Made by a program: the position numbers and the translations under genes. This document shows, piece after piece, positions 19,083 to 46,323 of a DNA stretch of 64,000 nucleotides. The DNA is from Botryllus schlosseri. Its lineage: Eukaryota. Positions within the stretch are counted from its first letter, which is position 1, and every line of letters starts with the position of its first letter. The stretch lies in the NCBI GenBank assembly GCA_051294905.1, contig CM119372.1, positions 2,606,001 to 2,670,000 of the forward strand. The letters run 5' to 3'. The notes under the pieces are model-generated. The model was given only the letters and a program-made list of their open reading frames with translations, was not told where the DNA came from and made no database searches.

Positions 19083-20482
19083 CCCACAGAACGGGATTTT
19101 TAAGTTATGAGGTATAGCTTCTGGTTTCGTGTGCGACCTCTTGGGCGTGACCACACACTCTGTCTGGTAAACGGCTAGTTAATTTGCGAGCACCCGCAGG
19201 ACTGAGTCTGTACGTGGTAAGTGTGCGATGGAACGCGCGATCCTGTAAGAATCCGCTTAATGATCATTCCACAGCAAAGAAAAATGGCCGGTTGCATTCC
19301 GAAAGATTTCCCAGAAACGAGAGAGAACCATGGTTGCAGCTGCTCTCTACAGGTACCTTGCACGCGTTAGCAGTACAAGACCACCATACTATTATATAAA
19401 CAAGGTATATGCGCAAAATTCGTTAATTCGCCGCAGACATCCACCGCGAAACCCAGGTTAAATTCCATATGAAGCAAGTTATGTTTGATCGCGGATTTTG
19501 ATATCAAAGTATTGGATTGACTGGATTATGCGGTATTTGCGTGTCGATTATTCGAGTATTGGCGCAAAGCTGTAATTTGATGGTGCAGGGCAAACAATGA
19601 GGGGCTTCTAATTAATATCGCCACGTTAGCCCAAGTATATTGCAATGGCATAAATCACTAAGGGCATTATAGGATCGATTCCGAGGGGTGTGAACCTTGA
19701 TCTTTGTTTTGCTGTGCGTGCGTAGCATTTCATCTCTAAAATCTATATAGTCTTGACTCTTGACGGTTACAGAGAATTAAAAATGGCCTGATCTTGTTGT
19801 GACATGCGTTGCAGCATTCCGATAACATCGCAAATGACTGAATATACGTTGCTTTCAGCGAAGAAGCCGAAAATTTTTCGTTAAATCTTACAATATTTAC
19901 CAGATTCCGTGTAAATCGCATAATCTTCGAGTTCCTTGAAGGACTTTGTCATTAATTTGTCGAATTCTGCGAGTTGACTTTTTAATCGAAGGTTAAGAAC
20001 GGTATATTGTGGTGGATTAATGTCGTTTCAATAATTTGATAACATCTGGTACATTGATACATTCCTAAATAGTGACATGCCTGACTTGGTGATGAACAGA
20101 TTGAGCTGCCGATAAAATTTCGACTTTGGGAGTTACATCATAACCAAATCACTTTGACTATAATGTCTAATGACGATCGCCGGGTATGGAAATGTAAGCT
20201 ATAAATTACGAGAAACTGTACCAGAAGCAAATGTTCACTTAACTGTGTTTTGAAAACCTACATGTCATATCCTAACATATACATTGCAATACATGTAATC
20301 CAATTATGTAGATCGCTACCACCCATGCCATGGTATAATGGTATCTTGTAATTGCACGTAACACAGTACCAGTATATTAAACCTTACGTATTGGTCAGAT
20401 TAACATTGCCCTAAAAGCGATAGAAACTTGGATTTAAAGTGTTGCTGCATCTACCAGCCTGCCGACGAACATAAGGTGCAAT

Positions 20483-22959
20483 ATGTTATTTGTACTTCTC
20501 GTCACTTCCGTTCTTACGTCCATCGCCGAAGGAGATCTGTGCGATTATGCACAACCAAGAATTAACGTCGACTGGTTACAGGCACGTATATGATGATGTA
20601 TATACTACTTCAATATAAACCACGCTGTAGGCTACAATGTACATCAAGTAATACTGGCATTATTATTTCAAATATTGTACGAGTTATGCCGAGCATATAG
20701 TACATTTATAATGAAGTCCTGTTACATTTCAGTTAAACGGATCGTGGTATCACCATATGATATTTGGAAGCGGTAGCACCACGTGCCGGAAAATGAACAT
20801 CACAAATGTCGACATCGAAGGCAAAGTAGTCAGCGTAAAATTCCAAGACCTGATTTCGTGAGTTACTCTTGACTCGTTGTTTTCAGACGACCAGTATTGA
20901 ATCTTCAACTTAGTATCATACAGCGCATGTCTGCGCGCTAGCGTGCGCAACTGTGTAATGTGCATTAACGTATGAGATCAGCAAAATGTAATATAGTGTT
21001 GATTAGCGCTCGACAGATGACTGTAACACCTTCTCCAATAACCCCGATTTGCTCAACCGATATTCAAAAGATATGGCATCTATAGCTAAAGACGCATTTC
21101 CAAAACTTCAAAGCATTTTTACGCCTTTGCAGCCATTGCAATGCTCGGACATGAAATAAACTGGGAAAACTGTACTGGGGAACCCGTAACCTAATAAACC
21201 GATCAATATCCCCAGTTCAGCAGCTGCAGATTTTATTTCTCTAACCAATGCTACCATGACGTAACGTAAAGGTAATTGTCGATATATTCTACCTCTAACG
21301 GCCGATACCAATATCTCTTTCAAAGATATCGAATCGTTATTATCTGCGAACCGATAATATAGGTCGGCTCTAGTGCTCATATTTTTGCCAAGTATGCTGT
21401 TGATTGGTAAATACCATGGTGAATAAGTAAACCTATCGCCAGGCGGGGACATACACAAACTTAACCAATCGTATATTTTATTTTTTCATGGATTTAGATA
21501 CTCGTCCCCACAGATACAAATTCGTGAAGAATTCGCATTCTTCAGATGGAGCGACAATCCTGGGGTTATTTACGCGGGAATCAAACCAGGTGCGGATGCA
21601 TAGTTATGGAATACTTGGTTCTCTGCGCACGTATTACGGTGCAATGTATTGTTCCAATGTATTCTTCCATGGTTAAAGAGAATCTTAGAGGCACAGCACT
21701 TCAATACACAATTGAATAATATATTCATGTTGAAATACACCCGAATATTTTCGGCAGACACTGGTAAGGAGTAAAATCGTAAGCAACTACCGCATAAAAT
21801 TTAGAAGAACATTGTATATCTTCTGTGGTTATTCTCATTTGTTTATGATATATATTCATTCAACTATTTGTAAAGACATCACATAAAGTAGGCAAGACCA
21901 GTATACGCATTCTTCACGTTCAATCACACCTTGTCAAGGATCTATCGCGGTAAGAACCGTCGTGGTCCTATAAAAAGTCTACCATTCGCCCTTTGTTTAT
22001 CGTTTACGCTCAGAGAATCACATATGAAACAGAAAGTATTTAATCCGTCGTATTTATATTTATATCGACCGCAAATCTCTAAATGGAGTTTAACCCAGAA
22101 ATATGTTTTATGCAGAAGACCGGGCCGCGTTACTGCGGACAAAAATGTTACCCAAGCGGAAATCGCTATGCTGGAAACTAGCAGGTATAATGGTTGGAAT
22201 TTATATCCAGAATCTTTCAGTTATGTGAATAATTCTTCTTCAATCAGATTTATATTGACATTTTAAGCTACGTAGGTATATGCACAATTTCAGGTGCACA
22301 TAAATTTACAATGTTGGTGGCTGTCACGGATAAATGCAAGAAATATCCAATATTAGGCCGCGCTTAATATTGTCAGAGGTGGTTAAAGCATACTTAGTCA
22401 AACCAGGCGATCACGTAAAAGTAGACGAATCGGGTAAATTTTTACCCAATTACAATTCGATGAAGCGGTTTCCAATAAGTAAAAATTTAGGCCTAAAAAG
22501 TGAAAACTATATATGGAACATACAGAAGTAGAAGTAGCTCAATATCATACCAACTTGATTAAGCAGTGCGAATAGGCAAAACTTCTTGCATTAATCAAAA
22601 AGTAGAAGTAGTTCGTTACCCAAAGCCTCAGCCAATGGCCACCATGTCTTTTTTTCTTCAGGTATTCGACGATTCCACTATACCATCCACGACACCGATC
22701 ACAGAAACTACATCATATTCCTAGGATGCAATGATAGAAGTATGCTCAGTTATATATATTATCACTGAAACGCCTAATTTTGAAATCTTACTCTCGTTTA
22801 ATTTTGGCAGTGACCACGGTGGGCGTTTCTCTGAAGTCGATCGAAATTGAGGCTGAAATGGTCGATATAATTCAGCGAAGCTTGACCTCGACCGGAGTGA
22901 ACTTTTCGAAAGCTCTCCAAAGCAGTTACTTGACGTGCTACGCTTTACAGAATTATTGA
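20483..22959 (+). CDS. Secreted lipocalin (ApoD/Lazarillo-like Cys pattern), gene 1; join(20483-20581,20733-20857,21498-21589,22116-22184,22662-22739,22811-22959), 203 aa
   Basis: Manual splicing gives one open frame: MLFVLLVTSVLTSIAEGDLCDYAQPRINVDWLQ|LNGSWYHHMIFGSGSTTCRKMNITNVDIEGKVVSVKFQDLIS|YSSPQIQIREEFAFFRWSDNPGVIYAGIKP|EDRAALLRTKMLPKRKSLCWKLA|GIRRFHYTIHDTDHRNYIIFLGCNDR|MTTVGVSLKSIEIEAEMVDIIQRSLTSTGVNFSKALQSSYLTCYALQNY*. Signal peptide, GxWY, TDH motif. Introns 2-5 are GT-AG; intron 1 is GC-AG. Exon-by-exon similarity to gene 2. AATAAA at 23201. Exon 4 is the least certain. Confidence 0.82.
21673..21765. repeat. Interspersed repeat end starting TTAAAG (Kolobok-like), in lipocalin-1 intron 3
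   Basis: Inverted copies at ~50322-50410 and ~30115-30170. Confidence 0.6.
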
Positions 22960-24694
22960 TGTGATTTTGACAAGCAACATTTTGAATATACAATAATACA
23001 TACAAGCTATATATTGTTTCGTTTCATATGGTCAATACAATCGCACTATGACAATTTGCAGTGTTTACGAGTTTGCACATTACCATCTGTACGATGTACA
23101 CGTTTCGTTGTGTAGCCCGGTGGTTCCCAACGCACGCGTTGCCTGATTCATTTTTGATTCGCTTGTTTTCAGACATGCTGAATGCTGATAGAAGAATAGA
23201 AATAAAAGAATAAAAATAATTGAAAACGTGAAGAGACTCGAAAAAACCTACACACCATAGCCCGTATTCAACAACCATTACTCAATGCGCAAACTCGAAT
23301 TTCGTTATTATTTTTAATAGAATTCCCTAATTATTTGATCAGTTAAGCTATTACGACTGTTTGTTAGGGTCGCAAGATTTAACCGACCTTATATTGTTTT
23401 CGGGGTTCTTCCTTAAAACGTTTTCGGAATTACTGGCTTATAGTGATGTATATCTAAAAGTTGAAGTAGCTTTAATGCAAAATAACTATAAAATATCGCC
23501 GACCTCACTGCAATTGCAGTGACTTAAAAAGCCCAGAAAGTACAGTGAGCCGAGTTTGAAAGTCGGCAGCAATGATCCAATGAAGGAAGGCGCATGGAAG
23601 AGGGAGAGAGAGACTGATTCGTGGAAGAGAGACTGCAAGAAAAGTCGTCATGAAAAATGCATTGAAATGTTGAAATTACAATTGTTTTGTTGAAATTGCC
23701 ATCGTGCCATTGTCGTGGAGCACATAGCCTCATAAGACTATAAGCACCACTGCCGTACCTTATCAATACATTACAATACAACTATATAATATGCCATATG
23801 CGATTAAAAGTAATTCATTGCATTGATTTACTTGTAACTGCTGGTAGTAGGATTCCACTGAATGATTCAGTATTGGAAATCGCTTGTAAACCGACAATCG
23901 CAAGAGGACGAAATTGGTCAAAAACAATAATGCAATTTTTATCCATTATTCGTGGCGGCTTTTATATATGGTGTTGGTTTTCGTACTTTCGTTATAAATG
24001 ATGCTCCAACGTTGTGTTTAGTAACTTCGTATCCTTGTAAGGGTTTTGTCGCGCAGTCCTGTGAATCAATCTTGTCTGACTTTCACCACTTCATGATTAA
24101 CAGAGGCGTGATACGCTTTCGGGATTATGTATTCGAAAGGGCAAATAGAACTTGCCTCTCCACCCACACACATAAAATTGCAAGCTATCAGTATTCATAT
24201 CAACTGCCAATTAGCGAAACAATTTGACAAGGATTTCTCATCTTCAGTTTGCTCTAATCCATCGGTTTCAGAGATCGCGTATAATCCAAACGTAGCGGTT
24301 AACGTACGCGCCAGATTGGGTTAAGTTGCAAAGGATTACGGATCGGTTTCGCAGAATTCTATCGCATGCATCATATTTCCTAGACTTGTATAAAGGACTG
24401 TATGTAAATTTGTGACGACTTTATAGCTACTTTCGAACCAAAAACCAAAACATAACGCCTCGAATAAACGGTGTGAAAATTCCTTGCTTTGCGAACAAAA
24501 GAATTAAGAGGTCGGTTACAGTGCGGAAACAAAACATCGAATAATACTAACTCCAACGATCAATGGCAAACTAACTGGTACCTAAGAATAGTTCATGCCG
24601 ATTGGAATGTAACACGCGAACGATTCGGTCACAACTCAAACGCGATGTGCAATAGCAAATTCGATACTGTTGGCAAATATGAATCGATATTGAG

Positions 24695-26462
24695 TAGGGC
24701 TGGGCGCAATGATTCGAGTACTCTAATCTGAATCGAGTATTAATTTTAATGATTCGAGTCGAGTACTAAAATTATACGCTCCTCGCAACTGACAGTTAAT
24801 TTACTAACGAGCAGAGGTGGTCAAAGTAGTCAAGAAAGCTACTCAAGTAGAAGTAGAAGTTGCGACGGAAAAATCTACTCAAGTACGAGTAGAAGTACTT
24901 CTTCCATAAGCAACCTAAAACTACTTGAAGTAGAAGTAGAATTTACTGACTTTAAATCTACTCAAGTAAGTAAGTAAATCGAAAACGATCGTAATTCGTT
25001 CGTATTGATTGTCAGAAGCTGCAAATTGAGCTATGCGAAAGGTGCAGGGCTGTATTTATATTGATGCTTACCAGGAGGCATCCAATTTTCGACAGCATAA
25101 GCGTTCGACCGCATGATTGACTGAAAATGAAAGTATTGATATGGAAATGCGATACCAATCCTCTGTTTACTCGAACAGAACGTTTTAGAAAACATGCTGG
25201 TACGACACCCTCCCCCATACTTAAGGCCCGTATAGTTTGGTCGAAGAGGAATACGGAGAAGTTGTATTGGATACGGTGTGAATACTTTGCGCGATTAGTA
25301 AACGGTAATAAAACATATAGTGGATCGCAAAAACTCCATATTGTGTAACTTTATTTCCGGAAATGAAAGGCATTACTACACTTTCTTTCACATGTATGTG
25401 CTCCAGACAAAAGAACTGATACTAATTAGAACTCAAAGTATGATACTTGGAATTGATAGTGAAACATAAATACTATAGTATACTTCTCAAAGCGGAAAAT
25501 GTATTTAATGTCTTTAGTCCAGAAAGGTTGTATGCTATACAAGGTCTAAAAGCTACAAAAAAAGTCAGAGACCACTGTTCCAGATTAGGACATGCCATGG
25601 ACTGCTAGACTACGATATGATAAGTAAATGCTAGATTGCGAAACATCAGTTTCAAACGCTATGATGGGCCATATATACCTTGATGTAATGTTTCATAGGG
25701 TGACAATGCGGTGTGAACGGAACCACGCAACCCGCTACCTAAATTATATTGACTTCCGTGAAATACTATTGATCACTCCATATCCACCGTGCGCGAAGCG
25801 CGACGAAAATTCTGGGCTTTATTCAACTTTTCTGAAAATAAAATGTTGATACTCCGTGAAAACAGCCCCGAAATTCTTCAGGCTATCTTCCTGATTGGAG
25901 GAATAAACGACTTCTACTTGACAAACTGAAAATAGCGAAAAGTAAGTAAGTAGATCACAAAATATTATGAAGTAGAAGTAGAAGTAGCAAAAATTAGATC
26001 TACTTGAGTAAGTACTAGAAGTAGAGGAAAACTACTTGAGTACTTCAGAAAAGTAGAAGTACTTCGTTACTGACCACTTCTGCTAACGAGTATTATAGTT
26101 TTGATACTATTTTCCATTGAGAAGCCTTCAAACCTGGATTGGACATGTCGCAGCATAAGAGACATAGTACAGAGCTACGAACGATACCGGAAATAATTTA
26201 CGAAGTCATGATCATTCCACAACATTGTCAATAAGTGCAATGAAATCGGTATGGTCGAAAAAATACCAAATGATCTTTATAGTAATGGATAACAGGCATT
26301 ATGTTCTTTGTGGTGGCATAAAAAGTACATATTTGAAATTTAACATAGTACATTCTGTTGTGAATTGTGACGTCATAATGAGTGATACTTGACTACTCGA
26401 CTCGAACCGTAATACTTGATTCAGAATCGAATCATTCAGGTACTCGATTTGGCCCAGCCCTA
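24695..26462. mobile_element. Family F MITE (reverse orientation) hosting family E
   Basis: TIR TAGGGCTGGGC; TSD ATATTGAG/ATATTGAC. Confidence 0.9.
24812..26082. mobile_element. hAT-type MITE family E with AAGTAG arrays
   Basis: TIR CAGA(G/A)GTGGTCA; perfect TSD CTAACGAG. Confidence 0.93.
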
Positions 26463-27224
26463 ATATTGACCCCTATACGGGCGTAGACCGTTTTAATGGA
26501 AAATAGGTAACCGCCTGAGGAATCTTCGAATTTAAACAAACAAAATTAACATCGTAACTGAGTCACGGATAAGTAGAATCAAAATCATCGTTGGTGATTT
26601 TGATTGTTATCATCCGCTTGAGAAGCACAATGCACAGTGCAATATACAATACACAATGCAATGGAGTGAACAAATAAGCGTATGTCGAAACGAAGAATTA
26701 GAATATCGATCTAACTATTTCAACATCCACCAATGCCCGATGTCACAGTGCTCGTAACTTTCAACTAAAATCAAATTAGCGATTTTCAAGACATGTCCAA
26801 GTGGAAGTGGAAGTAGAAGATGAAGTTCCTAAAAGTGCTCGATTTAGTAGTCTCAAAAAGTAGATTTAATTGCCCATATATTCAATTTTCGAACTATTTA
26901 GTTAACTGCGTGATACGGTCGCCTTTTCTCGTGGTTATAACTGCAGTTCCACTCGCAAAAGTGGCAAAAACCTATTACAAAACAACTCTTTCCAAGTTTA
27001 AAAACCGAAAGTTCAAAATAACTTCGTAATTTGGCTTGGAAACTGTTCAAGTGTAAGGGAAGTAGTCTAAATACATATTCACTTGAGTGTATCGGTACTC
27101 GTAGGCCTACATAGTTACCGATCACATCTGTGTAAGTTGTGGAATGGATTAAATCGAATAGAATGATGTTTAGAGGCAGTTCCATTCTCACACTGAATAG
27201 TTTTATAGGTCTGTGAAAAGAATT

Positions 27225-27460
27225 TCGAAACGACTTGGAGTAGTCTTTGAAATCAGACACCCACCTTCGCCCAGACGATGTAAAGAGGTGGCATGCACAC
27301 GGAATGACCAGTAAAAGAAGATAATGCAAAAGCACAAGGGACAAAATGAGGTGGCAAGTGACAGAAGGCGAGCTCGATATGTCAGGTCGTGGTCCGGTAA
27401 ACTTGAGGGCTGACTATAGCATTTATTCTGTAGAAATTGCTTGTATTTCCACTTGAATGT
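27225..27460. repeat. Unclassified ~240-bp interspersed repeat (copy 1)
   Basis: Colinear with ~40275-40510, e.g. TCGATATGTCAGGTCGTGGT.CGGTAAACT. Confidence 0.75.
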
Positions 27461-28609
27461 GTTAGATACGAATTCTGGCCACATATTTATAAACTTTTAC
27501 TTATTTATACTACTATCACGATCCTAATTACCAATCGGTTTGTCACGTATCGACTATTATATAACAAATTTCGTTGTAATGTGGTTTGGTTATTGTATTC
27601 CAAAGCACAATCTAATGAGATAATTACCATTCTATATACCTGGCATATCATACTGATGATGAAAAAGCTAGATGTTGCTCTACAGTCCAAAGATAAAGTG
27701 AAAATGGGGTGCATTTCTAAGATTTCTCTACATCCAAGCCGCGTGATACGAATGGCGTTGATGACGTCTCTTCATTTTCAAAGTTCCGTATACGAAACGA
27801 CTGTTCGTACCAGCACGATCGCAGGTCATGTCGGTCATGCCATCTTGATTGGATTATTAACGAATTGGTTTTGATTAAATTCTGATCCGACTTAGACGAG
27901 AGGAATTCTGATTAGTTGCCTTGATTACTTGATCAGCCGTGTTGCCAACGTATCATAATCCCGTATATTTAGGGACAAAGATAAGGGCATTACTCGTAAG
28001 CGAAATGTGGGGATTATGGCGATTTCGTGGAAGGTTGATACATGAAAACGATTTGCGACTACCTGGTATCTTACAGGTAACAGTAGTTGCAATATCGGCG
28101 ACTATGTACCGATACGATTGCATCTACTAAGATATGAGATCGAAATCAGTTTTGATGAACAGGATAGTAACGATATCAATCTATCTCCTTCATCTGATAA
28201 GATTACCGAATTGATTAAACATTTTATATTGTAACTAAAAAGCGTTCATAAATTAACCTAGCGTTAAAATGCGTTGTAACGAAATTATGGCGTAAATTCC
28301 CAATTGCTCACGTAACCCGACATAACGATTGAAAACCAGCGATTACGATCGTTTCAGTGCGTGTGAAATTTCAAAGCAATTATAAACAAGTCATTGTTAA
28401 CACGAATATTGATTCGGTGTCGTGTACTACAAGGCACAGATACGTGCTATTTGGTTATGGTGGCCCTGAATGCACTTCCACCGTCTTTTGATTGTTATCA
28501 AATACATTGTCTCTACTTATTAGCCCAAACTAATTTTGCATGTATAGAATTCTTAGCTAAAATCCTATCAAGCAGACATTGAGTCAATTGGAGAATTTTC
28601 AACTTTTCC

Positions 28610-28990
28610 AGATTGGATTAGCCAGGTATTTTTTTACCAAATTATTGACTAGAATTAGAATTATAGCTGCACATTTATTATACATATTACTATTAGAATT
28701 ACTGAATTCGCGAAAACTTGGATGTTGAATGAAGCTCAGTTCATATCTAATAAGAGTTCGTTATCATAAACACGAGAATGACAAATCTCCGTAAAGAAAG
28801 CTTGGTTCGTTTCGCACTATACAGTTGCCCTTGGCATTTACATGAAAACAAGAAATTAGATTAGAATTAAAATTAGAGCATAGAAACATTCCTCAAATTG
28901 CGTCCGATTTAGAATTAGATTAGAGCAACGAAACGAATTAGATTTGAATTAGATTTCCGGCATTTCGCTCCAATTAGTCTAATTGCATAA
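28610..28990. mobile_element. Family G element with ATTAGA/AATTAG arrays
   Basis: Core GG(T/C)TCGTTTCGCACT.TACAGTT recurs at ~36790 (inverted), 41590, 49105 and 52290 (inverted). Confidence 0.7.
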
Positions 28991-29835
28991 ATGAAGAATG
29001 ATCTGATTGTCCACGTCTGCTTGGAAGCGGCCCTCGAAATCGCTTCGTTCACGGAGTTACAAAACAAGAAGTCGCTTGCCAATCAAACTGAACGTCAAAT
29101 CACGCGTTTCGATCGAAATTCGGCTGTGAATAACACAATAATCGCCGCAATTCGAGTATACTCTTTCTTGGAATTCGCGCGGTGTATTTTTCACAAATAT
29201 TTTCGCGATCATTTTAGAACTGGATCATAATAAAAACATATCCAAACGTACGCTAGCTGATAAAGTACACCGGTCTAAATAAGGCATGACGCCATATCAG
29301 ATTCGGTAAATATTGATATCTCCAAACAATGTAGGCAAATCTGATAATATTTGACTGAAATATCTCGCATCACACGCGTACGGACATTCACAACAACAAA
29401 TCGATTTGCGATATACACTTTATAGGCTATAGGTCGCGGGTGGCACACTGGTGACCCGCGCTCCAAACCCGACCCACCAAACTATTCCAAGTGACCCACC
29501 AGAGCATTGCAGTACCTGTGCCAGAGTTCGATCTTCAAGTCAACATTAAGGCAATTTCAAACGAATAAATACTTGCATGCGATTAGGAGTGGTGGATCAA
29601 GTTTAGGACAGATAGACTGCTCATGCCTCGACCACGGGATATCGAATGTGATTGATTGTTATTAGGCCATAGGGGCTGGGAGATAAAACTTTTCAGGCTC
29701 GTTTACACGTTTTTATTGTTTTTCTGTTTTGTTGATTTTTAGTCAGGACGTCACGAATCCTTAATTGTGACGTCAAAATTGAGTGACATCGACAATTGGT
29801 AAAAACGAGACCGTTCCTACCTTTCAGAAATCAGT

Positions 29836-29886
29836 ATGTGTGTGTGTGTGTGTGTGCGCGGCGCGTGTGTGTGTGTGTGTGTGTGT
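29836..29886. repeat. (TG)n microsatellite interrupted by CGCGGCGC
   Basis: Read directly. Confidence 0.9.
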
Positions 29887-31078
29887 GGTCTTGGATATTG
29901 TTGATTTCAAATCCGGTCATGTAACAGCTGAAAGCTGCGGATTGTGCTCCGGTACGTTCACGACGAAAAAATCTCAGAAATATGTCATGGTGTGCCATAC
30001 TATACCTTTTCCCAATGCACGCATCTGAAATATAGGGAGTGGTATTACGTCATATTTGATGATACGATTGTTGATATACAATCTTATGTCCAATTCTCTA
30101 CTAGATGGCAACTAAAGATATTCGGCTTGATTTAAATATGAATATACTATTCAATTGTGTATTGGAGTGGTATTTCACTACATTTCACACTTGATAAAAT
30201 TTACTTGCAGTATTCTCTTCTCCAGCTGTGATTAATTTTCATAATCTCCCATAGATTTCTCTACGATTGCAATAATTTGCTAACGTATACTGTCATTAAC
30301 AACAGTCGATTCACATTCTAATTTGCCATCAACGTAACCGCTGTTAATGTCGTATCGCCACGGCCAAAGCTCTAACATCATAAGCCAGTGATAACGATTG
30401 CAAACCATTCCCGTGGTTGCCACTTCGGTACAATTTCAGTACACTTAGGTGCACCAAGTTAGCATAGTGAAGCTACTATAGGCTACTTGTTGTAGCTCCT
30501 TCCGGACCATTCTGCAGCATTTGTGATAGATTTATAGCTCATCTGACAACGCCTTGTACAGAATGTACACGTGTTCATCTCATAGTTTAGAGTTGTAGTA
30601 TATTTCGATTGTGTGACAGATTCGTTCTGTACAGACGTCAGCTCTTCGTTTCAAATGTCATCGCGGCAGTACGCATGGTTAAAGGACCACAACCGATTCA
30701 TTGTTACTTGCTGCAATATATATACATATTTACACCTTTTAGTTACGGTACAGGGTCTTATACGCCCGCAAAACATATCCCTCGGTTGACAGAACGCGCG
30801 CATGACACCCGGCATGCATAAGAGAGAGATCTCACCGTTGTAGAAGGTGATGGAAGGAAGCGATAATCTACCACAAGCAACATGATCTGTCAATCACAAA
30901 TCATTGCGGTAGCGGGCCGGGACAAAGGCGGTTTTCACGGAAATAGAGTTCGTGACATTAACTTGGAATTACGCAATACGGAAAATCAATTCATCACGAT
31001 CTCCTATACAGGTTCGGAAGGCGAACCTTGATATTTTCAAGGTACGATTTTCCAAACGGACCTTGCAAGGTTCTACAG

Positions 31079-32175
31079 AAGTGGTCGGGAACCTATGGCT
31101 CGCGAGCCATGTATGGCTCTTTTCGGTATAAGATATGGCTTTTTGAGAAATTTTTGATTTTGAACTTAATTTATCAATATTGCAGCAACTTGTTAGTAGA
31201 TTTTCATGACAGCGATAATAATTATTCTCGTGGCTGCATAAAATGTCTTTGAGAGGTCAAGACAGTTGGGTATCCAGGGTTCTAGGCTCGCACCGCTCTC
31301 TTTTTAAAATCCTCAAATTCAAGTTGCTGTCGCACCGGCGCCACCACCCGCGATTTCGATCTACCCACCAGCGCGCGCCTAGAAATCTTGGATTGCACGA
31401 TACCTTGATTGACGAAAGAGAATAGTTGACATGGCGACACTTGTAGGACAATGTAGTTTTGAGATACACATTTTCTTCTTGATCCACGCCAAGAAATAAA
31501 ATGCCTTGAAAATGACATTCACAATTACAAATTCAAATTAAAAACAACGCCATAGCTATCCATTTTCTTCATCGGTTAGTAGATTTAGCACCGCCGTAAA
31601 AATGTTGGTGTATAACGTAACGTTACGCCGAATGTTTTAGAAGTCAATCAATACTTAGATGTTCAGAATCATCGCGGCAACTACATTTGATTAATATCAG
31701 TGATTCTAAATTCTACGCGATTTACGATGAGTTGGGGTGTCACAAGTGAGGCTTGGCCCGTTTGTGCCTCATCAGAGACTCACCTCTCTTTTCGCTCTTT
31801 ATTTTCGAACAATAAATATGAAAATTCCGTGATTTTGGGAATAAAATGTTCGAAATCTACTCATTCATAAACATCGATAGAAGATACCAATAACCATTAA
31901 ACGGTTCACAAATTTCCTTCACTCATCTCTGACGACAAGTGAGGAACTGCCTCACCTGCCTTCCTTAACCCCACGCCACTGACGTATCCCACGGTAGTTA
32001 TGTACTGCTGTAGTGACCGTGTTTGGCTCCACCTACCAATGTGGGGGCGGAAATATATGGCGCACACTACGAATCCCTTATATTAGTGCTACCAATACGT
32101 CACGGATGTACAATTGTGACGTAACGGTAGATTGACATGTACGGCTCTTCGGTCGAAGAAGGTTCCCGACCACTG
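31079..32175. mobile_element. Family A MITE (diverged copy)
   Basis: AAGTGGTCGGGAACCT...AGGTTCCCGACCACTG; TSD TTCTACAG/TTCTACGG. Confidence 0.88.
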
Positions 32176-32180
32176 TTCTA

Positions 32181-32761
32181 CGGGGTTGTAATGACCCGAA
32201 TTATATTTTAAATATGGAAAATAGCTCGAGTTGACTTGAGTCAATTCGTTCATGGCGCATGACTCGATCCAGACATATGACTCAAGACTCGTAATCAAGA
32301 CGGCATTTATTTGTAACTCCTAAGAATAGGAAAGTTACCACATTTCTGGTATTTCGTCTATCAGCAATGGTACTTGAAAAATAGGGCCCGAAATTGTTAA
32401 GAAGAAGGTAAATTGCTATATTTTGATTTTTTGGTTGCTGTCACACCTTATTTAACATTCACTCGCAAAGTAATAATTTTATTTGTAAATTTATGAATAT
32501 TTATGAATGCGATTCGGTAATAACCAAGCAGTGTTATAAAAAAGTGGGCTGAACATGACTCGAACTCGCAACAGAACAGTGAACACAAGGACCTGCGGAC
32601 TTGGAATTGAGTATCAACACTAAGACCTGGAAACGACGCTCTGCTACCCGACTTGGACTCGGACGCGGACTCGGTCGAGAATTGAAAAAAACACGACTTG
32701 ACTGGAGTCAAAACCTAGATTTACTTATAACTCAGAACCTTGTGACTTGGTTACAAGCCTG
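32181..32761. mobile_element. Degenerate MITE with GACTCG/GACTTG arrays
   Basis: Termini CGGGGTTGTAA / TTACAAGCCTG; subterminal motifs like those of family I. Confidence 0.5.
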
Positions 32762-32859
32762 GGTTCTCCACTGTGGACATTTCTGCCGAATAACTGAATT
32801 CTATAGTTAGATGTATGGTCAAATGTACTTGAATTACAATGTCGGCAAGATAATGCAAT

Positions 32860-33120
32860 GTGGCGAGATAGCGTAGCGGTATGATACACGGCTGCAACAC
32901 CAATGGATTGCGGATTCGAGTCCGACCGAGGTCGACTACAGAATTCCCACCTAAATGTTGTAGGTTTATCAGGCACCTCATCGCCATCTCATCCGCGCAG
33001 GCGGTGTCTTAGAAAGCCTGGAAGTGAGCCGTACGTCGGCAGATACAGAATCATAATAAAGACAATCGGCCTGGTTTCAATGAACATTGCAATCGACACA
33101 CACCATGAATAGCACAAACG
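32860..33120 (+). mobile_element. tRNA-derived SINE family S2
   Basis: Head GGCGAGATAGCGTAGCGG...GATTCGAGTCC, then GACCGAGGTCGACT; copy at 58089; related 3' parts at ~44140-44270 and ~48670-48803. Confidence 0.78.
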
Positions 33121-33221
33121 AACAGCTCCCTAAATCACGACGGAAGCAGAAAAGGAAGTCTAGCACAAAACGAGTCGAAATATTAACTTGATTCTCGGTA
33201 ATTATGCCTGAAATATCCAAC

Positions 33222-33402
33222 CTTGCTGGCGGACTTGCCTCCGTCGCCGCTATCTGATTGGTCGGGAGTCTGACCAGGGCGAGATCATAAGCTTCTATGC
33301 ACGAGTTCTGGCGGACGTCTGCCGTTCCGGATTCAACCACAATTTAATTTGCATGCTCCAGTGCCAGATTGCTCCTGTGCTGGACTAATCCTCAGTGCAG
33401 TC
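33222..33402 (-). pseudogene. Possible decayed trypsin-like (S1) serine protease exon
   Basis: AG...GT-bounded segment reading LH*GLVQHRSNLALEHAN*IVVESGTADVRQNSCIEAYDLALVRLPTNQIAATEASPPAR, similar to the DIALLxL...PxCL catalytic-Asp region. Two stops. Confidence 0.3.
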
Positions 33403-33484
33403 CTACATTAGTGAATGCAAACACGCGTATATGTAGCCTTGATTCCCACTCTGGATGTATTTGAATTTCAGCAACACTTTTCGG

Positions 33485-34230
33485 TAGGGCTTGGCACAAC
33501 GATGTAAGTACTAGAATATAGAGTCTTAATTATGATTCAAGTACTGTAAAGTAGTGAGAGATGATTCTTCCGAGTACTGAGAATGTACGATGCTTGCCAT
33601 CAGTGAGAGTGAAATTGGGATAAAGAATTATAGTTTTGATATCATATTGCACTGTGGAAGGCTGTGAACCTCGGTTAGTGGTCTCGTAGCACATGACGCA
33701 TGACCGAGCGAGATAGTGTAATGGTTATGCGTCCGGCTTCTCGAGCGGTAGGTCGTGGGTTCGATCCCCGGCCGGGTCATACCAAAGACTCGAAAAATGG
33801 TATCCGCAGCTATCCTGCTAGGCGCTCAGCAATCACGGATAGCATGGAGGAGAAAAAAAACGGGGGCGCAGACTAGATGACCTCATGGGGCCGTATCGCA
33901 ACTCCGTCGCCAAAGCATCTCGATGGTGCAGGCGAGAAAGAATATCATATCTCTCTCTCTCTCTCAGTACAAAGCTTGACATTACTGTGAAGTGTGAAGT
34001 CACAGCGTTGTCACATAGCGCAATGAAATAGGTATGGTCGAAAGTATACCAAATAATCGTTAAAGTGATGTTATTCGTGGTAGCAAAAGAGGTGCTTATT
34101 TGATCTTCCTACTTCCTATATCTTTCATCTGCAGTGACGTCATAGTAAGTGATACTCTAATATTCGTCCCGAGTAGACGCCTCATACTCGAATCAGGATC
34201 GAATAACTCAGATACTGGATTTTGTCTAGC
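33485..34230. mobile_element. Degenerate family F copy (reverse) hosting an S1 SINE
   Basis: Starts TAGGGCTTGGCACAA; contains GCAATGAAATAGGTATGGTCGAAA as in other F copies. Confidence 0.7.
33703..33965 (+). mobile_element. SINE family S1 (full length)
   Basis: A and B boxes, core and (CT)n tail; highly similar to 7617-7867. Confidence 0.9.
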
Positions 34231-34505
34231 TCTTGTCATCATGCGGACATTTCGATCACGCGTGACACCTTCAGAATGATACCAAGCGTACTAGTCTATA
34301 GACCACCACTCCGAAATATCTTGTACATAGAGAGGCGCAGAGGAAGGCCAATAGCGATTTGGTCTCGAATTCGCATCGTGACGTCGTTGATGATCGATAT
34401 GATTTCTTTGGAGATTTTAACCCAATTGTATTGTTCAGCATGTTATTTGTTTTGCGCCACGCTCAGGATGGTTCACTATCAAGCAAGAGGAAGACGCACT
34501 ATATA

Positions 34506-35712
34506 TAGGTTTGCCATACGTCCTCTTTTAAAAGGATTGGCTTCTTTTTTCAATAAATTGAAAGTGTCTTAGGAGGACGCCTAAATGTCCTCTTTTTGAA
34601 TTTGTCCTCTTTTCCTAGAAAAAGTATTAAAATGCGATCAAAAACTCGACTCCGACGCAGCGAACGACAGAGTTTTGGCAAGACAGTCGACGAAAAACAC
34701 GAAGCGACGGGTATTTTAGGAGTAGAGATGGGAAAGATGACCTTTTCTGTGCTATTGGTCAGGATTTTTTTTAAATCACCAGTTTTTTTATGGTCCTACA
34801 GCAGGAGTGTCAAACATACGGCCCGCGAAGCAATTATGAGTGGATTGAAAAAGTCTCGTACTATCGAGCACATTTGTACCAGATGTTCAGCTTTTTTGTA
34901 GGAAATACTTTCATTAAATATTCCCTCAAGAAAGAAAATGTCGAGCATGTTCAATGTTCATATAGGCCACATTATAACTGCCCGACTACGGCGTTGTGGT
35001 TTCACTCTCTCTAATTCGAGAATGCAAAAAGTGCACACAGAGTTCAGAGTTTTATGGGAAAATGGACCAAAAAGTAGCTATTCGCAAAAACGCCAACGCG
35101 GAACCGTTATATGCAGTCTACATGAAAAATATAGGTACGCAAATATACACAATCGCACTGTTGTGTCGCTTTCAACCCAATAGGCCCCGGACTTATAAGA
35201 GAAACTCGACTCGCGATTTAATAATAATAATCTAAATTCCAACGTCCGCGTTTAGACGCAGTGTGCAGTGCTAAGGCCTGTTTGCGACTAAAGCAAAGGA
35301 AGCACAGGAATATCCTAACTTGTATCGTCGTTAGCGCCACTGTTTTATCAGTTCTTAAGTCTAACTGTGCATAACTGTACAGCTCAGTGATTCTACCGGA
35401 CAATCATCGTATTTTTGCCAATTCCATTATTCGCGAATAAAGGTGTTGTCACTTGCTAGAATAAGGCTCCTATGATCCGTGTATTTATCTCCGTGTAATT
35501 ATCTATGTGTGTTTGATAATAAAACATTCATTCAAATGAAAAGTAAGGAAGCGAGGTAACATTTTGGAATCAGTTGACTGGTCCGACCCGCGAGCGATTT
35601 TAAGGCTTGAATCCGGCCCGCGGCGCAATTTGAGTTTAACACCCGTGTCTTGGAGATTTCAGAATTTTTGAAAAGTTTCCTCTTTTGCGGATCTCAAAAT
35701 ATGGTAACTCTA
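34506..35712. mobile_element. Family K MITE hosting a Charlie-like MITE
   Basis: TAGGTTTGCCATA / TATGGTAACTCTA; perfect TSD ACTATATA. Confidence 0.85.
34802..35647. mobile_element. Charlie-like hAT MITE nested in K
   Basis: CAGGAGTGTCAAAC..CGGCCCGCG / CGGCCCGCG..GTTTAACACCCGTG; decayed TSD TCCTACAG/TCTTGGAG. Confidence 0.7.
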
Positions 35713-36689
35713 ACTATATATCTCGAGAAGCTTTAAGCTCAACGCAGGATATTATAAATAAACTGTGATGGTTAAACGATGGAAGGACACAAGATGTGAA
35801 GTCCTAAATTTTTTTTCAATGCACTTCCTTCAATCTTTGGTGTATGTTTCCTATCATCAGATTATGTCCTTGCAGATTTCAACACTCAAACATCATCAGC
35901 TTCATCATTTTCGAACATGTTCGTGACTTATATGCTTGAACCAATGGCGCCCTAGCGAGATATGAATCTATACGTCGCCATATCTGTTTCTACAATCCAG
36001 TTAATATTTGCCAGGAGTTTAGCCCATAGAAAACGTGCCCTGCCTTTCAGATTTCATCCGCCATATATTAAAATTAATGAATATCTTGTCATAATTAAAC
36101 CACACATCTATAATCTTTAATGATGGAGTCATACAGCTATCCTAAACTGTGATTTCCAAGCACTCCGTCTACGGTAATCATAAAATGCTGTGTATTATCA
36201 GTTACTATACGTATGTGTGCAATGACTCGCGGAACTACCATAATCTCTTATTGAAACGAAATCCATTAGCGATCACAACTTAACGCCAGTGTTCTGCAAT
36301 GTAATTACATATTCGAAAGTACAACAATATTCATCAACAATCAGAAACCAATGTGCTGATGGCGTAGACATTGTGACTGCAATCATCTAAAACGATAAAG
36401 AGGTGTTATTTTTGCATACGCTTCTTGATCCTGACCCGAAGTGTGCGGCGATTCGTATCTGCCTCGCGAGCACTGATAACATAACCAATATGACATGTTT
36501 ACACATCATTTGCGCGAGAATAAAATTATCTAACAGTCACGCAATACCCAAGACAATGAGAAACCAAAAAAAGGGAAGAAGACTCCCGGTGTGTATATAT
36601 ATCCAGGATATTCTTTGAAACTACATACAGCATCTAGTCAATGGATAGATGAAAATGCTACACAAGAGCTAACTTGGACATTCTATGTG

Positions 36690-37040
36690 TCTAGTTAGGG
36701 CGAAATGCCAGTAATCTAATTTGTGAAAAGCTATAAGTATATACTCTAATTTTATTTGTAATCTAATTTCTGGTCTTCCTGAAAATGCTACGGGAAACTG
36801 TAAAACACGAAACGAGCCAAGCTCTGTGTACGGACATTTTCCGTTCTCATGCTCACAAGAATGGACTCTTGTTTTGATACGAACAGAACTTGATTTTTGT
36901 TGTATGTCTTTCTAATTACGACATTAATTCAATTTCCAAGTTTTTGCGAATCCAGTAATTCTGATTCTTATCAAATTGGAAAAATTGTGTAACTATAATT
37001 CTAATCGTAATCTAATTTGGAAAAGCGGGAAATGTTCCAG
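36690..37040. mobile_element. Family G element (reverse), ~200 bp upstream of the lipocalin-2 ATG
   Basis: TCTAAT arrays and core GAAACGAGCCAAGCT. Confidence 0.65.
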
Positions 37041-37248
37041 TCCAAAAATTTAATCGGGAGTGTGACTGCTTTTCAATGAGCATAATCTTACGTACGTGGA
37101 GTGCATGGAAAATGCATATCCTCGAACTGACGATTTCGTAATATATGACAATGATACTGTTTATAATTACGCTAAATGGCTGTGACGAGACGCTGTTGCA
37201 TTCTGAATTTCAGAGTTGTTTTGTTTACGAACTACCTTTCCGAAGAAT

Positions 37249-39302
37249 ATGAATTTTATAGTACATTGTGCCGTCTTGGCGCTCTTGGTAGCTCTTTCTG
37301 GCTCGGCAACAATCAAAAGCAACTGTAGACGGAACCTACCGCAAGCAGATATCGATTGGACTAAGGTAACAACCCATTGTACTATAAAATGCTTTATTCC
37401 GAGTCGAAACAAACTCCAGTAAGCTTGCAGCGCTCACATTAACAATGCATTGCTTCTGTGCGTCTATGTCACCAGTTCATATTTGCTTTATGCTAGTCAG
37501 AAATCAAATCATATCAATCAAGCATTTTATTATTATCAGATGACGTATAATGGAAACATTTACAATTCCACGTCCCGTGTATTTACCTACATCACGACTT
37601 AGTTGATGCGATTAGACAATCTATCCCTAATGGATTGAGAATGCAGCGTTTTGTGTGCGGTTTTGCAGTTGCAAGGAGCTTGGTATCATTTGCTGTACTT
37701 GCCGGCCTCGAGAACATTTGTGAGCTGCAGGAAAATGGAATTATCTTATGCCAACCCCGGGAAAAAAGTTCTAAAATTCGTATTTTCAAATATAGGGTGA
37801 GTAACTTTGTATGTTTAAAAGAAACACTGGCGCTTTAGTATGTGAGGTTGCAATGATAGCTAAATTTGTTGCAAGTGACCTGGACCATGCTTTAATGCTA
37901 TAAATTTATTCGACAATGCTTATTCCAGATACGGCGCAGAATCGGCGACATATCTATCGACGAAATTACGATTCGTATGGTCGGAAGAACCGGGACTAAT
38001 TCATCAAGTCTTTAAAAGTAAGTATTGAGTTTAAAGCCACAGAGATGTTATAAGATATTCTGAGGATTCTAGAACACAGTTTTTCATTTCATTCGATATA
38101 ATAATCACGAATTTGAACTCGCATGGCCTTTTTATTAAAAGCATAGATCTGACATGCGAGGAAATTCATTGTTTGTGATCCTAATGTGGCCATACTGACT
38201 TATCGCCAAGTATTCCTGATTTACTTCCGTATAATTCGTGTTTCTTGTGTCGACTTCACGCACTCAGATCTGGAATAGACGAATAGAACTTATAAATCTT
38301 TTAACCATCTCTGTGTCATATCAAACGATGTTCAGCGCTGTTTAGCAACAGAAAATCTCATAGGTTTTTATTGACATGCGTTCTTTGTTTGGTAGATGGA
38401 TTTAAAAAGAAAATGACAGGTTCGAAAACGCCGGTATTTCAAACAGGTAAAATATTTCTATGTTGCGTTTAGTCGGGTATCGACAGCTATGACAATGGTT
38501 CTGTTCTTCGTTTACACAGATTATTCAATTTCCCGTACGCTCGGATCGACGGATTACACGAACTTCATGATATTGCTTCAATGCAAGAAAGGTGAATTAT
38601 CTGTAAATATGTCAATATGATCTAGTTTTCGTTTCCATGATCGACACAAAGCTTGCAGGCTCAATCTCCTGTGAATGGCTTCGTTTCGAAAGTGGTTACC
38701 TTAATACTGTTGATATAGGAGCAAGCTGTCGTACCATGTGCGGATTATAGTCCGGTAGAAATGCAGCCCGACATAGTTATGTGATTCACGTAGCCAATCG
38801 CTTGGTATACCCGGGAACATGTCACGTATAGCTTGCCATTAATCAAATATATATACGTTAATATATGACGCACCTCCTAACTCTGTGATCTGTTGCTGTT
38901 AGAATAATGTCTCGCGACGTAACCACGAATAATGGTATAGCAACATGAATAACAATACTATTACCGCATGAAGGTAAAGACAATGCTGGGATTCCTATCA
39001 TATGCGATGCATCATTCATGTCATGACTTTTCATTGATTATAGTGAACTGTAAATAATTATTATCGCTAATTACCCATTGTGACTAATGACACTTAGTAT
39101 AACCTAGGCGTGTTAGATTTAACTGTAGACGAATTACTAATTCGAATTTCTTGCCTTCAACAATACAGATGACCGTACAGCGTCGATTTCGCTTCGGGAC
39201 ACAGACATCTCTGAGAATTTGATGGACCATTTACGCACAAAAATGTCGGAATACGGATTTCCTATTGATGATATCAAGTTGAGCAACGTCACTTGTTCCT
39301 AA
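37249..39302 (+). CDS. Secreted lipocalin (ApoD/Lazarillo-like Cys pattern), gene 2; join(37249-37365,37669-37796,37929-38017,38396-38446,38520-38591,39169-39302), 196 aa
   Basis: All five introns are GT-AG and the frame is open: MNFIVHCAVLALLVALSGSATIKSNCRRNLPQADIDWTK|LQGAWYHLLYLPASRTFVSCRKMELSYANPGKKVLKFVFSNIG|YGAESATYLSTKLRFVWSEEPGLIHQVFK|NGFKKKMTGSKTPVFQT|DYSISRTLGSTDYTNFMILLQCKK|DDRTASISLRDTDISENLMDHLRTKMSEYGFPIDDIKLSNVTCS*. Signal peptide, GxWY (SCR1), TDY (SCR2), SLR (SCR3-like). AATAAA at 39432. Confidence 0.9.
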
Positions 39303-43478: not shown

Positions 43479-43663
43479 ATCAGATTAGAATTAAAATTAG
43501 AGCATACGGAGACATTTCACAAATTGCATCAGAATTAGATTACCGGCATTACGCTTGAATCGGTCTAATTAGATACCTACAATTATCAAGTTGGCCAGTT
43601 CTGGTTGGTACAGCGACTACGCAGCGAAATCACAACGGCGACATGTGACGAGTGGTTCTAGAA

Positions 43664-45720: not shown

Positions 45721-46163
45721 ATCAAATCGTGAAAAATACCTAATCGTGAAAAATACCAAATCGGCATTATTCCGAACAATCGCTTGACGAAATTGACCAT
45801 TGTTATGTTCATTGTGTTGCGGGGCTGCTGCCATTGTTGGAACAATGCCGATTTCTATACTTTGGGGGCTGTTTCGGGGTGGTTCCATTGCCCTGACAAG
45901 ATTTTAAGTTGTTTTTCGGAATCGTTGCGACACTAGCTTTCGATTAAGACCAATTATATTAAATTTCAGTGCTCGGGTCGCTAGCTACAGCACTGATTAA
46001 GCTAATTTTAGATTGCTCAGCACTAAGATCCACTGGTTGCCCAAGCGTAGCCACCGTGAAATTGCGTATCTGTCCGTAGATTAGTAATTTAAATAGCTGG
46101 TTCGTGGTACAGAACTTGAATATAGCTTTCAATACAACATCCATTGTAACAGAATATTTATTA

Positions 46164-46200: not shown

Positions 46201-46323
46201 AACGGCACACTAAAGGGATTTAAACAGATTTAAAAGCAAAACCAAAAAGGCAAAGTATGATGCAACAATCAAAATCACAGACCATGAAATTCGCATCGTA
46301 CCAATGGCAACAACAACAAACTA

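What the first reader, a model, noticed from the sequence alone, without database searches (positions are those of the whole stretch)
20483..39302. Hidden tandem pair of highly diverged six-exon lipocalin genes
Seen: two same-strand genes ~14 kb apart, with identical exon number and intron phases (0,2,1,1,1), signal peptides, W-x-x-L-x-G-x-W-Y-H, C-R-K-M, F-x-W-S-x-x-P-G, TD[Y/H] and a C-terminal T-C. Neither appears intact in the ORF track because each exon is under 50 codons. Known: GxW and TDY are lipocalin conserved regions, and this four-cysteine spacing is that of ApoD/Lazarillo-type lipocalins. Inference: an old, lineage-specific duplication of secreted small-ligand carriers, possibly an uncharacterised invertebrate-chordate subfamily.
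Basis: partly seen in the sequence, partly recalled or inferred. Interest (0 to 1): 0.72.

Follow-up and report, generated by a model that had tools for sequence, protein, structure and literature searches.

The report
Hidden sea-squirt lipocalin gene pair
Two real, spliced genes, probably from a sea squirt, encode strongly diverged secreted lipocalin carrier proteins of an unnamed family that databases list as uncharacterized, and both carry an extra positively charged loop, coded by its own exon, at the predicted mouth of the ligand pocket.

Summary
Two six-exon genes, A (20483-22959, 203 aa) and B (37249-39302, 196 aa), have phases 0,2,1,1,1 and are 26% identical (z=28.8). A's intron 1 is GC-AG. 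RNA shows 1 of 10 junctions directly; contig lengths fit 8 more.

An exon-2 profile found full-length relatives: three 'uncharacterized' Styela clava proteins on one sequence and one unnamed protein. Their profile hits ApoD (E 8.5e-6). Their models are eight-stranded lipocalin barrels (ApoD Z 13.8, tied with other lipocalins). All four stay below Pfam cut-offs. A and B themselves could not be folded.

The four cysteines align with ApoD's, but these are not typical ApoD: six exons, basic pI, no pocket Trp127 equivalent. Exon 4 encodes a basic insert of 17-23 residues in the E-F loop, matching the excess length over ApoD. The phase string equals that of Ptgds/ApoM, but from recall introns 4 and 5 lie elsewhere there.

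Verdict: a new, probably ascidian, ApoD-like lipocalin subfamily with a cationic loop. Ligand unknown; carrier function and loop role are inferred.

The parts
20483..20581 (+). Gene A exon 1: signal-peptide-like N-terminus and first conserved Cys (C20); ends at a GC donor, phase 0
   Evidence: hydrophobic core; 3-nt overlap of X5 contig record 9 fits only this donor
20733..20857 (+). Gene A exon 2: SCR1 (GxW), strands A-C, C51; phase 2
   Evidence: X5 contig piece 20730-20857; mapping on homologue model
21498..21589 (+). Gene A exon 3: strands D-E (F-x-W-S-x-x-P-G); phase 1
   Evidence: iE 1.3e-5 to the external profile; length fit
22116..22184 (+). Gene A exon 4: symmetric phase 1-1 exon, 23 codons, basic E-F loop insert (net +5) with unpaired C124
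   Evidence: the 69-nt length is required by the 239-nt contig gap; aligns with the basic segment of homologues
22662..22739 (+). Gene A exon 5: strands F-G, SCR2 (TDH), C151; phase 1
22811..22959 (+). Gene A exon 6, coding part: strand H, degenerate SCR3, C-terminal helix, C197, stop; transcript runs to at least 23048; AATAAA at 23201 and 23209
37249..37365 (+). Gene B exon 1, coding part: signal-peptide-like N-terminus, C26; phase 0; a contig extends upstream to 37146
37669..37796 (+). Gene B exon 2: SCR1, strands A-C, C59; phase 2
37929..38017 (+). Gene B exon 3: strands D-E; phase 1
   Evidence: covered by X8 reads and by X1 contig depth
38396..38446 (+). Gene B exon 4: symmetric phase 1-1 exon, 17 codons, basic E-F loop insert
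   Evidence: length fit 211 vs 210
38520..38591 (+). Gene B exon 5: strands F-G, SCR2 (TDY), C150; phase 1
   Evidence: junction to exon 6 shown by 23 RNA reads
39169..39302 (+). Gene B exon 6, coding part: strand H, SCR3-like R162, C-terminal helix, C195, stop; transcript runs to at least 39427; AATAAA at 39432

Best explanation
A and B are two intact, spliced paralogues of an unnamed, probably ascidian-restricted, ApoD-like lipocalin subfamily. SHOWN: gene models; transcription and splicing of B (one junction directly) and of A (contig arithmetic); end-to-end homology to three Styela clava proteins and one unnamed protein; a lipocalin fold for two of those homologues; four invariant Cys aligned with ApoD's. 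INFERRED: (1) secretion through a signal peptide (about 0.9); (2) two ApoD-type disulfides, C20-C151 and C51-C197 in A, C26-C150 and C59-C195 in B (about 0.8; pairing recalled from ApoD); (3) origin from an ApoD-like gene with three introns, followed by insertion of a symmetric phase 1-1 exon in the E-F loop and gain of an intron in the G-H loop (about 0.6); (4) the calyx binds a small hydrophobic or amphipathic ligand, most likely a fatty acid, sterol or pigment (about 0.7); (5) the exon-4 basic loop sits at the calyx mouth and replaces ApoD's hydrophobic docking loops with a cationic one, tethering the protein to anionic surfaces (sulfated matrix or tunic polysaccharides, anionic membranes, microbes) or gating an anionic ligand (about 0.35).
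For: Models, shuffles and RNA. Homologues: 3 of the 7 hits are full-length relatives (26-34% identical to A and B), a fourth came; names. Family profile against the PDB: ApoD E 8.5e-6, bilin-binding protein 2.6e-5, Per a 4 6.9e-4; the top 15 of 41 rows are all lipocalins. AF2 models (mean pLDDT 71.4 and 63.1) show a short helix, 8 strands and a C-terminal helix. Foldseek ranks ApoD first for both (E 3.8e-7 and 6.2e-8); VIA-align gives Z 13.8, rmsd 3.4, 142 aligned. ESM Atlas: 10 of the 10 best family-bearing hits share one family or clan for both homologues tried, and all Pfam families shown are lipocalin types. Cys register read (2hzq numbering): first Cys to G of GxW 16 vs 16 and 16; T of TDY to Cys 11 vs 11 and 11; W to second Cys 15 vs 13 and 15. 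GxW-to-TDY spacing is 79 in ApoD against 104 (A) and 97 (B); the excess of 25 and 18 matches exon 4 (23 and 17 codons). Exon 4 maps between strands E and F, with net charge +3 to +7 in 6 of 6 family members. The E-F loop gates the calyx in beta-lactoglobulin (PMC8173191, passages); ApoD docks to lipid structures through rim loops (PMC8530192, passages).
Against: A and B themselves were not folded or scanned whole against Pfam. 0 of 4 homologues reach a Pfam cut-off and 0 of 11 exon pieces hit a lipocalin family. A shallow E. coli Blc profile does not detect A (198 of 500 shuffles score as high) and barely detects B (24 of 500). ApoD's lead in Z is a tie with LCN15, crustacyanin, RBP4, VDE, siderocalin, alpha-1-microglobulin and C8 gamma, and the Atlas puts RBP4 or triabin-like clusters above ApoD. 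The loop has pLDDT under 50, so its helix and position are weak. It is the least conserved part in B, and its hydrophobic moment is high in only 1 of 6 members. No ligand, tissue or pocket-volume data. Gene A had almost no coverage in the two raw RNA runs.
Confidence: 0.62

Rival explanations
1. [quoted passage not shown]
For: Six coding exons with phases 0,2,1,1,1 is the pattern reported for that amphioxus gene and for vertebrate ApoM and Ptgds (PMC3184775, passage), whereas chordate ApoD has four coding exons (PMC8530192, passage). Atlas top hits for P0122 are RBP4 clusters (0.94 vs ApoD 0.92). RBP4, LCN15, alpha-1-microglobulin and C8 gamma tie with ApoD in Z.
Against: The sequence profile prefers ApoD and insect bilin-binding proteins; no RBP4, PTGDS, ApoM or AMBP chain is among its 41 rows. 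There are only four conserved Cys, against three disulfides in RBP4 and ApoM (PMC8420045). Here introns 3 and 4 flank the E-F insert and intron 5 lies in the G-H loop. From recall (no call; Sanchez 2003 was not held), PTGDS and ApoM introns 4 and 5 lie at SCR3 and just before the last Cys, so the phase match would be coincidental.
Confidence: 0.17
2. They are lipocalins used as protein- or surface-binding effectors (like triabin or tick complement and clotting inhibitors, recalled) in defence or cell recognition, with a minor or vestigial ligand pocket.
For: Deep divergence (23-51% identity within the family) and basic pI 8.8-9.6. The best Pfam score is Triabin, 19.1 of 21 bits. The Atlas top hit for P0124 is a triabin/nitrophorin-bearing arthropod cluster. 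A and B lack the residue aligned to ApoD's pocket Trp127. Run X8 carries a B version with 4 of 7 listed changed codons non-synonymous.
Against: Barrel-core motifs and both Cys pairs are kept. The triabin similarity is below cut-off and generic to the clan. The X8 list is truncated (292 rows hidden), so it says nothing about selection.
Confidence: 0.13
3. The exon-4 loop is a proprotein-convertase site or a releasable cationic peptide rather than a docking loop; cleavage nicks or activates the disulfide-held barrel.
For: Clusters of basic residues (K-R-K-S or R-K-K-S) occur in A and in 3 of 4 homologues, in a low-confidence exposed segment.
Against: B and P0122 lack that motif. No canonical R-x-K/R-R furin site (motif recalled) is shared across the family. 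No processing data.
Confidence: 0.06
4. Gene A is a decaying copy, or the models are partly artefactual.
For: A needs a non-canonical GC donor and has near-zero depth in both raw RNA runs. The contig sets that hold A are not on record as RNA. One X1 contig reads from exon 4 into intron 4.
Against: A has an open 203-aa frame aligning end to end with homologues (E 4e-42). A 623-nt contig lacks the introns and fits the model to the base. All invariant family residues are kept.
Confidence: 0.02

Closest known systems
Styela clava uncharacterized proteins XP_039268370 (LOC120343298), XP_039268591 (LOC120343472), XP_077967457 (LOC144421104), and unnamed Logan protein P0124
   Same: Same length (200-212 aa), signal-like N-terminus, four invariant Cys, SCR1 and SCR2 motifs, basic E-F segment, basic pI. 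The three S. clava genes lie on a sequence of the same length (25,587,678 bases), apparently one chromosome.
   Different: Only 23-35% identical to A and B; orthology unresolved. They carry no functional name, and their exon structure could not be seen.
Apolipoprotein D (human 2hzq/2hzr) and insect bilin-binding protein (ApoD/Lazarillo-type lipocalins)
   Same: Best sequence-profile and Foldseek matches; four Cys aligned; TDY-x8-C; C-terminal helix.
   Different: ApoD has four coding exons and pI 4.7-5.5, and uses Met93 and Trp127 (PMC8530192). A and B have six exons, pI 8.8 and 9.3, Gly or Ser at the Trp127 position, and an 18-25 residue excess made of a basic loop.
Amphioxus Bf_Ambp/ApoM/Ptgds/Rbp4, vertebrate PTGDS and ApoM
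   Same: Six coding exons, phases 0,2,1,1,1 (PMC3184775); lipocalin fold (PTGDS Z 12.5).
   Different: Not among the 41 sequence-profile hits. From recall, introns 4 and 5 sit at other positions. ApoM has three disulfides.
Ciona intestinalis APOD_Cint (ENSCING00000010079)
   Same: The only tunicate lipocalin in the 2021 family survey (PMC8420045).
   Different: It was detectable by PSI-BLAST from human lipocalins. No Ciona-named protein appeared among the named hits of the family searches. Its sequence was not compared.

Membership tests
Lipocalin family | Eight-stranded antiparallel barrel followed by a C-terminal helix | tested here: met
   Met on homologue models P0122 and P0124 (ApoD Z 13.8, rmsd 3.4, 142 aligned). 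A and B are linked to them at 167 and 106 bits but were not folded themselves.
Lipocalin family | SCR1 (GxW at the start of strand A) | tested here: met
   G36/W38 in A, G42/W44 in B; invariant in 6 of 6
Lipocalin family | SCR2 (TDY between strands F and G) | tested here: met
   TDH140 in A, TDY139 in B; aligned with ApoD's TDY through the family profile
Lipocalin family | SCR3 (basic residue ending strand H) | tested here: met
   Degenerate: K163 in A and R162 in B align with the ApoD SCR3 Arg
Lipocalin family | Secretion signal | tested here: inconclusive
   N-terminal hydrophobic core (KD9 2.8-3.2) and no later membrane segment in 6 of 6; no signal-peptide predictor was available
Lipocalin family | Binding of a small hydrophobic ligand in the calyx | not testable with these tools
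   No ligand or cavity data
Pfam PF00061 / PF08212 / PF03973 / PF24976 | Score at the curated cut-off | tested here: not met
   0 of 4 homologues (best Triabin 19.1/21, Lipocalin 16/23, Lipocalin_10 13.4/27); 0 of 11 exon pieces. Whole A and B could not be scanned.
ApoD subfamily | Four conserved cysteines in ApoD register | tested here: met
   first and third spacings exact in both; second exact in B and 2 shorter in A; last Cys 5-6 residues closer to the third than in ApoD
ApoD subfamily | Coding sequence in four exons | tested here: not met
   Six exons against four (PMC8530192)
ApoD subfamily | Acidic pI, pocket Trp127, antioxidant Met93 | tested here: not met
   pI 8.8 and 9.3; G159 and S158 at the Trp127 position, though Trp in 3 of 4 homologues; no invariant Met in the E-F loop
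ApoD subfamily | Monophyly with ApoD in a family tree | not testable with these tools
   No animal reference lipocalin sequences were available to scripts; the Blc outgroup was uninformative
Ptgds/ApoM/AMBP branch | Six coding exons, phases 0,2,1,1,1 | tested here: met
   against PMC3184775
Ptgds/ApoM/AMBP branch | Same intron positions on the fold | tested here: inconclusive
   Our positions are mapped; the vertebrate positions come from recall only and differ for introns 4 and 5; no held paper gave them
RBP4/ApoM | Three disulfide bridges | tested here: not met
   Four conserved Cys only against PMC8420045
PTGDS | Catalytic cysteine in the calyx | not tested
   No structural alignment of that residue was made; A's spare Cys124 lies in the E-F loop

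The most novel reading that the evidence does not exclude
An ApoD-like gene in ascidians captured a symmetric exon that grafted a cationic lid onto the pocket mouth. This turned an acidic lipid-managing protein into a basic, surface-docking one, which then multiplied and diverged fast (at least 2 copies here, at least 3 in Styela clava) for a role at the tunic, blood or microbe interface. In doing so it reached the 0,2,1,1,1 intron-phase pattern of Ptgds/ApoM independently, so that the phase string alone is an unsafe marker of lipocalin ancestry, and the tunicate lipocalin repertoire is undercounted.
Probability: 0.25. Interest if true: 0.62.

Novelty: new variant of a known kind. Interest (0 to 1): 0.42.

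Why it matters
A 2021 survey found a single lipocalin in Ciona and used it to root the chordate tree (PMC8420045). This pair and its Styela relatives show a multi-gene tunicate family that falls below Pfam cut-offs and is annotated as uncharacterized, so the sister group of vertebrates may hold more lipocalins than counted. The genes combine ApoD-type cysteines with the intron-phase string used to argue that the ancestral chordate gene was Ptgds/ApoM-like (PMC3184775). Mapping their introns is a cheap test of whether that string reflects descent or convergence. The one-exon basic loop is a clean deletion target for learning how a lipocalin is retargeted. It is not a new kind of system: lineage-specific blooms of diverged lipocalins are common (tandem expansion in mammals: PMC8420045; other groups recalled).

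Tried and rejected
No whole genome was held, so paralogues outside the window and synteny are untested. Within the window no third copy was found by tblastn or by family profiles over 3489 segments. Exon pieces found no lipocalin in Pfam (0 of 11; B exon 4 was too short to send) or in the PDB (only chance hits such as CFA/I fimbrial subunit). B exon 2 against longer proteins found nothing. A Blc profile was too shallow to test membership (hhalign probability 7.9%, rising to 24% with six sequences). 4 of 7 hits (P0121, P0123, P0125, P0127) were dropped as internally repetitive proteins matching only a short motif. The run search listed no holder on record as RNA; this is not used as evidence. 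RNA run X12 had zero depth over the last three bins of B; that is one run read at 13 in 100, not evidence of silence. Trees were unresolved. 343 of 343 stop-to-stop ORFs of 55 aa or more gave no Pfam hit at cut-off (3 sub-threshold); there was no tRNA and no Rfam match. Genes with short exons would be missed by these scans. My first reading that the phase string files the genes under Ptgds/ApoM was downgraded after mapping the introns on the fold. An alternative 66-nt exon 4 for A (second AG three bases on) and three alternative open or GT donors for A intron 1 do not fit the contig. Five look-ups of earlier findings gave nothing on this locus or family. No complex was predicted because no binding partner is claimed.
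Full report
OBSERVATION. The window is animal-type DNA: GC about 0.37-0.45 per 2 kb, CpG observed/expected 1.16, and many dispersed repeats. Both gene models exist as described. Gene A has coding exons 20483-20581, 20733-20857, 21498-21589, 22116-22184, 22662-22739 and 22811-22959 (203 aa). Gene B has 37249-37365, 37669-37796, 37929-38017, 38396-38446, 38520-38591 and 39169-39302 (196 aa). Intron phases are 0,2,1,1,1 in both; 9 of 10 introns are GT-AG and A intron 1 is GC-AG. The proteins are 26% identical over 180 residues (E 2e-18), with a Smith-Waterman score 28.8 standard deviations above 2000 shuffles.

TRANSCRIPTION. Four runs from four studies were laid on 20300-39500. Repeats crowded the tables (134 joints and 9544 pieces not shown), so only 1 of 10 junctions is displayed directly: B intron 5, with 23 reads from 12 starts in RNA run X8 and an X1 contig. 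Contig arithmetic covers 8 more. A 623-nt X5 contig matches A exon 2 and exon 6 with 239 letters between, exactly exons 3+4+5. It begins matching 3 letters before the exon-2 acceptor, an overlap given only by the GC donor among 6 candidate phase-0 donors. An X1 contig leaves 130 letters after B exon 1, exactly 2 plus exon 2. Another leaves 211 letters against 210 expected for B exons 3-5. B intron 2 is supported only by protein homology. Caveats: X1 and X5 are not on record as RNA; A had near-zero depth in both raw RNA runs; X12 did not cover the 3' bins of B.

RELATIVES. Exon pieces hit no lipocalin family in Pfam (0 of 11) or chain in the PDB. A two-sequence profile of the exon 2s against 1.84 billion representatives gave 7 hits. 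Four were repetitive proteins and were dropped. Three were full-length relatives: Styela clava XP_039268370 and XP_077967457, both 'uncharacterized', and an unnamed Logan protein. A fourth, S. clava XP_039268591, followed from a word-based search that returned only these four. All three S. clava genes are recorded on a sequence of 25,587,678 bases. They align end to end with joined A (31-34%, E down to 4e-42) and B (26-30%). A profile of the four scores A 167 bits and B 106 bits against shuffle maxima of 3.6 and 6.0, and ranks nine true exons first among 3489 window segments, with no third copy. The host is therefore probably an ascidian related to Styela; this is inference and was not tested.

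FAMILY. The homologue profile hits ApoD (E 8.5e-6), bilin-binding protein (2.6e-5) and other lipocalins in the PDB. AlphaFold models of two homologues, built from four-sequence alignments of family members only, show a short helix, eight strands and a C-terminal helix (mean pLDDT 71.4 and 63.1). Foldseek ranks ApoD first for both. VIA-align gives ApoD Z 13.8 (rmsd 3.4, 142 aligned), tied within 1 with LCN15, crustacyanin, RBP4, VDE, siderocalin, alpha-1-microglobulin and C8 gamma. ESM Atlas neighbours are lipocalin clusters, with RBP4 or triabin-like clusters on top. Against this: 0 of 4 homologues reach a Pfam cut-off, a shallow Blc profile does not detect A and barely detects B, and A and B themselves could not be folded. 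I put lipocalin membership at about 0.95.

SUBFAMILY. But chordate ApoD has four coding exons, pI 4.7-5.5, Trp127 and Met93 (PMC8530192, passages). A and B have six exons, pI 8.8 and 9.3, and Gly or Ser at the Trp127 position. They resemble ApoD but should not be filed as ApoD. The phase string equals that of amphioxus Bf_Ambp/ApoM/Ptgds/Rbp4 and vertebrate ApoM and Ptgds (PMC3184775, passage). On the model, however, intron 1 precedes strand A, intron 2 follows strand C, introns 3 and 4 flank the E-F loop, and intron 5 is in the G-H loop. From recall, not from any call, ApoD's three introns correspond to our first three, and the fourth and fifth introns of PTGDS and ApoM lie at SCR3 and before the last cysteine. 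If so, the match in phases is a coincidence. No held paper gave the positions. Tick lipocalins are also said to share a conserved lipocalin intron pattern (PMC3695081, passages), another reason not to lean on phases.

THE INSERT. GxW-to-TDY spacing is 79 in ApoD (read) against 104 in A, 97 in B and 102-106 in the homologues. The excess, 25 and 18 residues, matches exon 4 (23 and 17 codons), a symmetric phase 1-1 exon. The segment has net charge +3 to +7 in 6 of 6 members and is modelled as a helix with pLDDT under 50, so its shape is uncertain. The E-F loop is at the calyx entrance and gates it in beta-lactoglobulin (PMC8173191, passages), and ApoD uses hydrophobic rim loops to dock on lipid structures. 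The simplest reading is a secreted, two-disulfide ligand carrier whose docking or gating loop has become cationic. The carrier role (about 0.7) and the loop role (about 0.35) are inferred. Rivals are the Ptgds/ApoM branch, a surface-binding effector, and a processing site.

AGE OF THE DUPLICATION. At 26% identity the pair is old or fast-evolving. A groups with the unnamed protein (81/83, unstarred), but an A+B clade is not rejected (p-AU 0.21), nor is an S. clava clade (0.27). Whether the duplication predates the split from Styela is open.

SURROUNDINGS. The 14.3 kb between the genes holds repeats. No other gene was recognised: 343 of 343 ORFs of 55 aa or more had no Pfam hit at cut-off, and there was no tRNA or Rfam match. 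Short-exon genes could be missed.

LITERATURE. PMC8420045 (parts 1-3 of 4 read, supplements searched for two terms) reports a single Ciona lipocalin, labelled APOD. Searches for lipocalin with Styela clava (1 paper), Botryllus (4), ascidian (27, of which 25 listed), Ciona plus ApoD plus retinol-binding protein (2) and related terms (listings only) showed no title or abstract start describing this family. The library lacks most subscription journals. Passages of PMC6325677, PMC5008119 and PMC6402760 added nothing. One earlier scan note (e1-7596805) describes a comparable array in an arthropod; it was not checked and is not used as support.

VERDICT. A real pair of expressed genes forming part of an unnamed, probably ascidian, ApoD-like lipocalin subfamily with an exon-encoded basic loop: a new variant of a known kind. 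Interest 0.42.

Noticed in passing
window 37245-39216 (gene B), run X8: All X8 reads at the listed places differ from the window: 9 coding changes in 7 codons (S92P, G137T, N143T, N169D and 3 silent) plus one 5' UTR change. Divergent strain, cryptic species or close paralogue; the list is truncated.
   Followed up: partly
window 20581/20582: GC-AG intron 1 in gene A at the position where B has GT-AG; supported by a contig overlap.
   Followed up: yes
window 22116-22184: Gene A has an unpaired fifth cysteine (C124) in the basic loop; homologue P0130 has a spare one at C27. Possible intermolecular disulfide, as with human ApoD Cys116.
   Followed up: no
window 37200-37214: An acceptor-like site (pyrimidine-rich, AG ending at 37213) lies 35 nt upstream of B's ATG: a possible 5' UTR intron or trans-splice site. 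One X1 contig reads through it from 37146.
   Followed up: no
window 46126-47433: A 282-aa open frame on the minus strand (46327-47172) sits between perfect 66-nt inverted repeats. It looks from recall like the C-terminal part of a Penelope-like retroelement; no Pfam hit.
   Followed up: partly
window 7617-7793, 33712-33888, 60123-60283: Three copies (90-94% alike) of a SINE-like repeat; the copy between the genes draws the highest RNA depth. ARAGORN finds no tRNA.
   Followed up: no
window 24700-26500, 41950-43500, 63300-63990: Copies of a long dispersed repeat in both orientations, 82-96% alike, with GAAGTA-rich subrepeats; very high contig depth.
   Followed up: no
window 22141-22342: An X1 contig reads from A exon 4 into intron 4 without splicing: pre-mRNA, intron retention or DNA.
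   Followed up: no
window 8888-9454: A tandem unit of about 209 nt, roughly 2-3 diverged copies.
   Followed up: no
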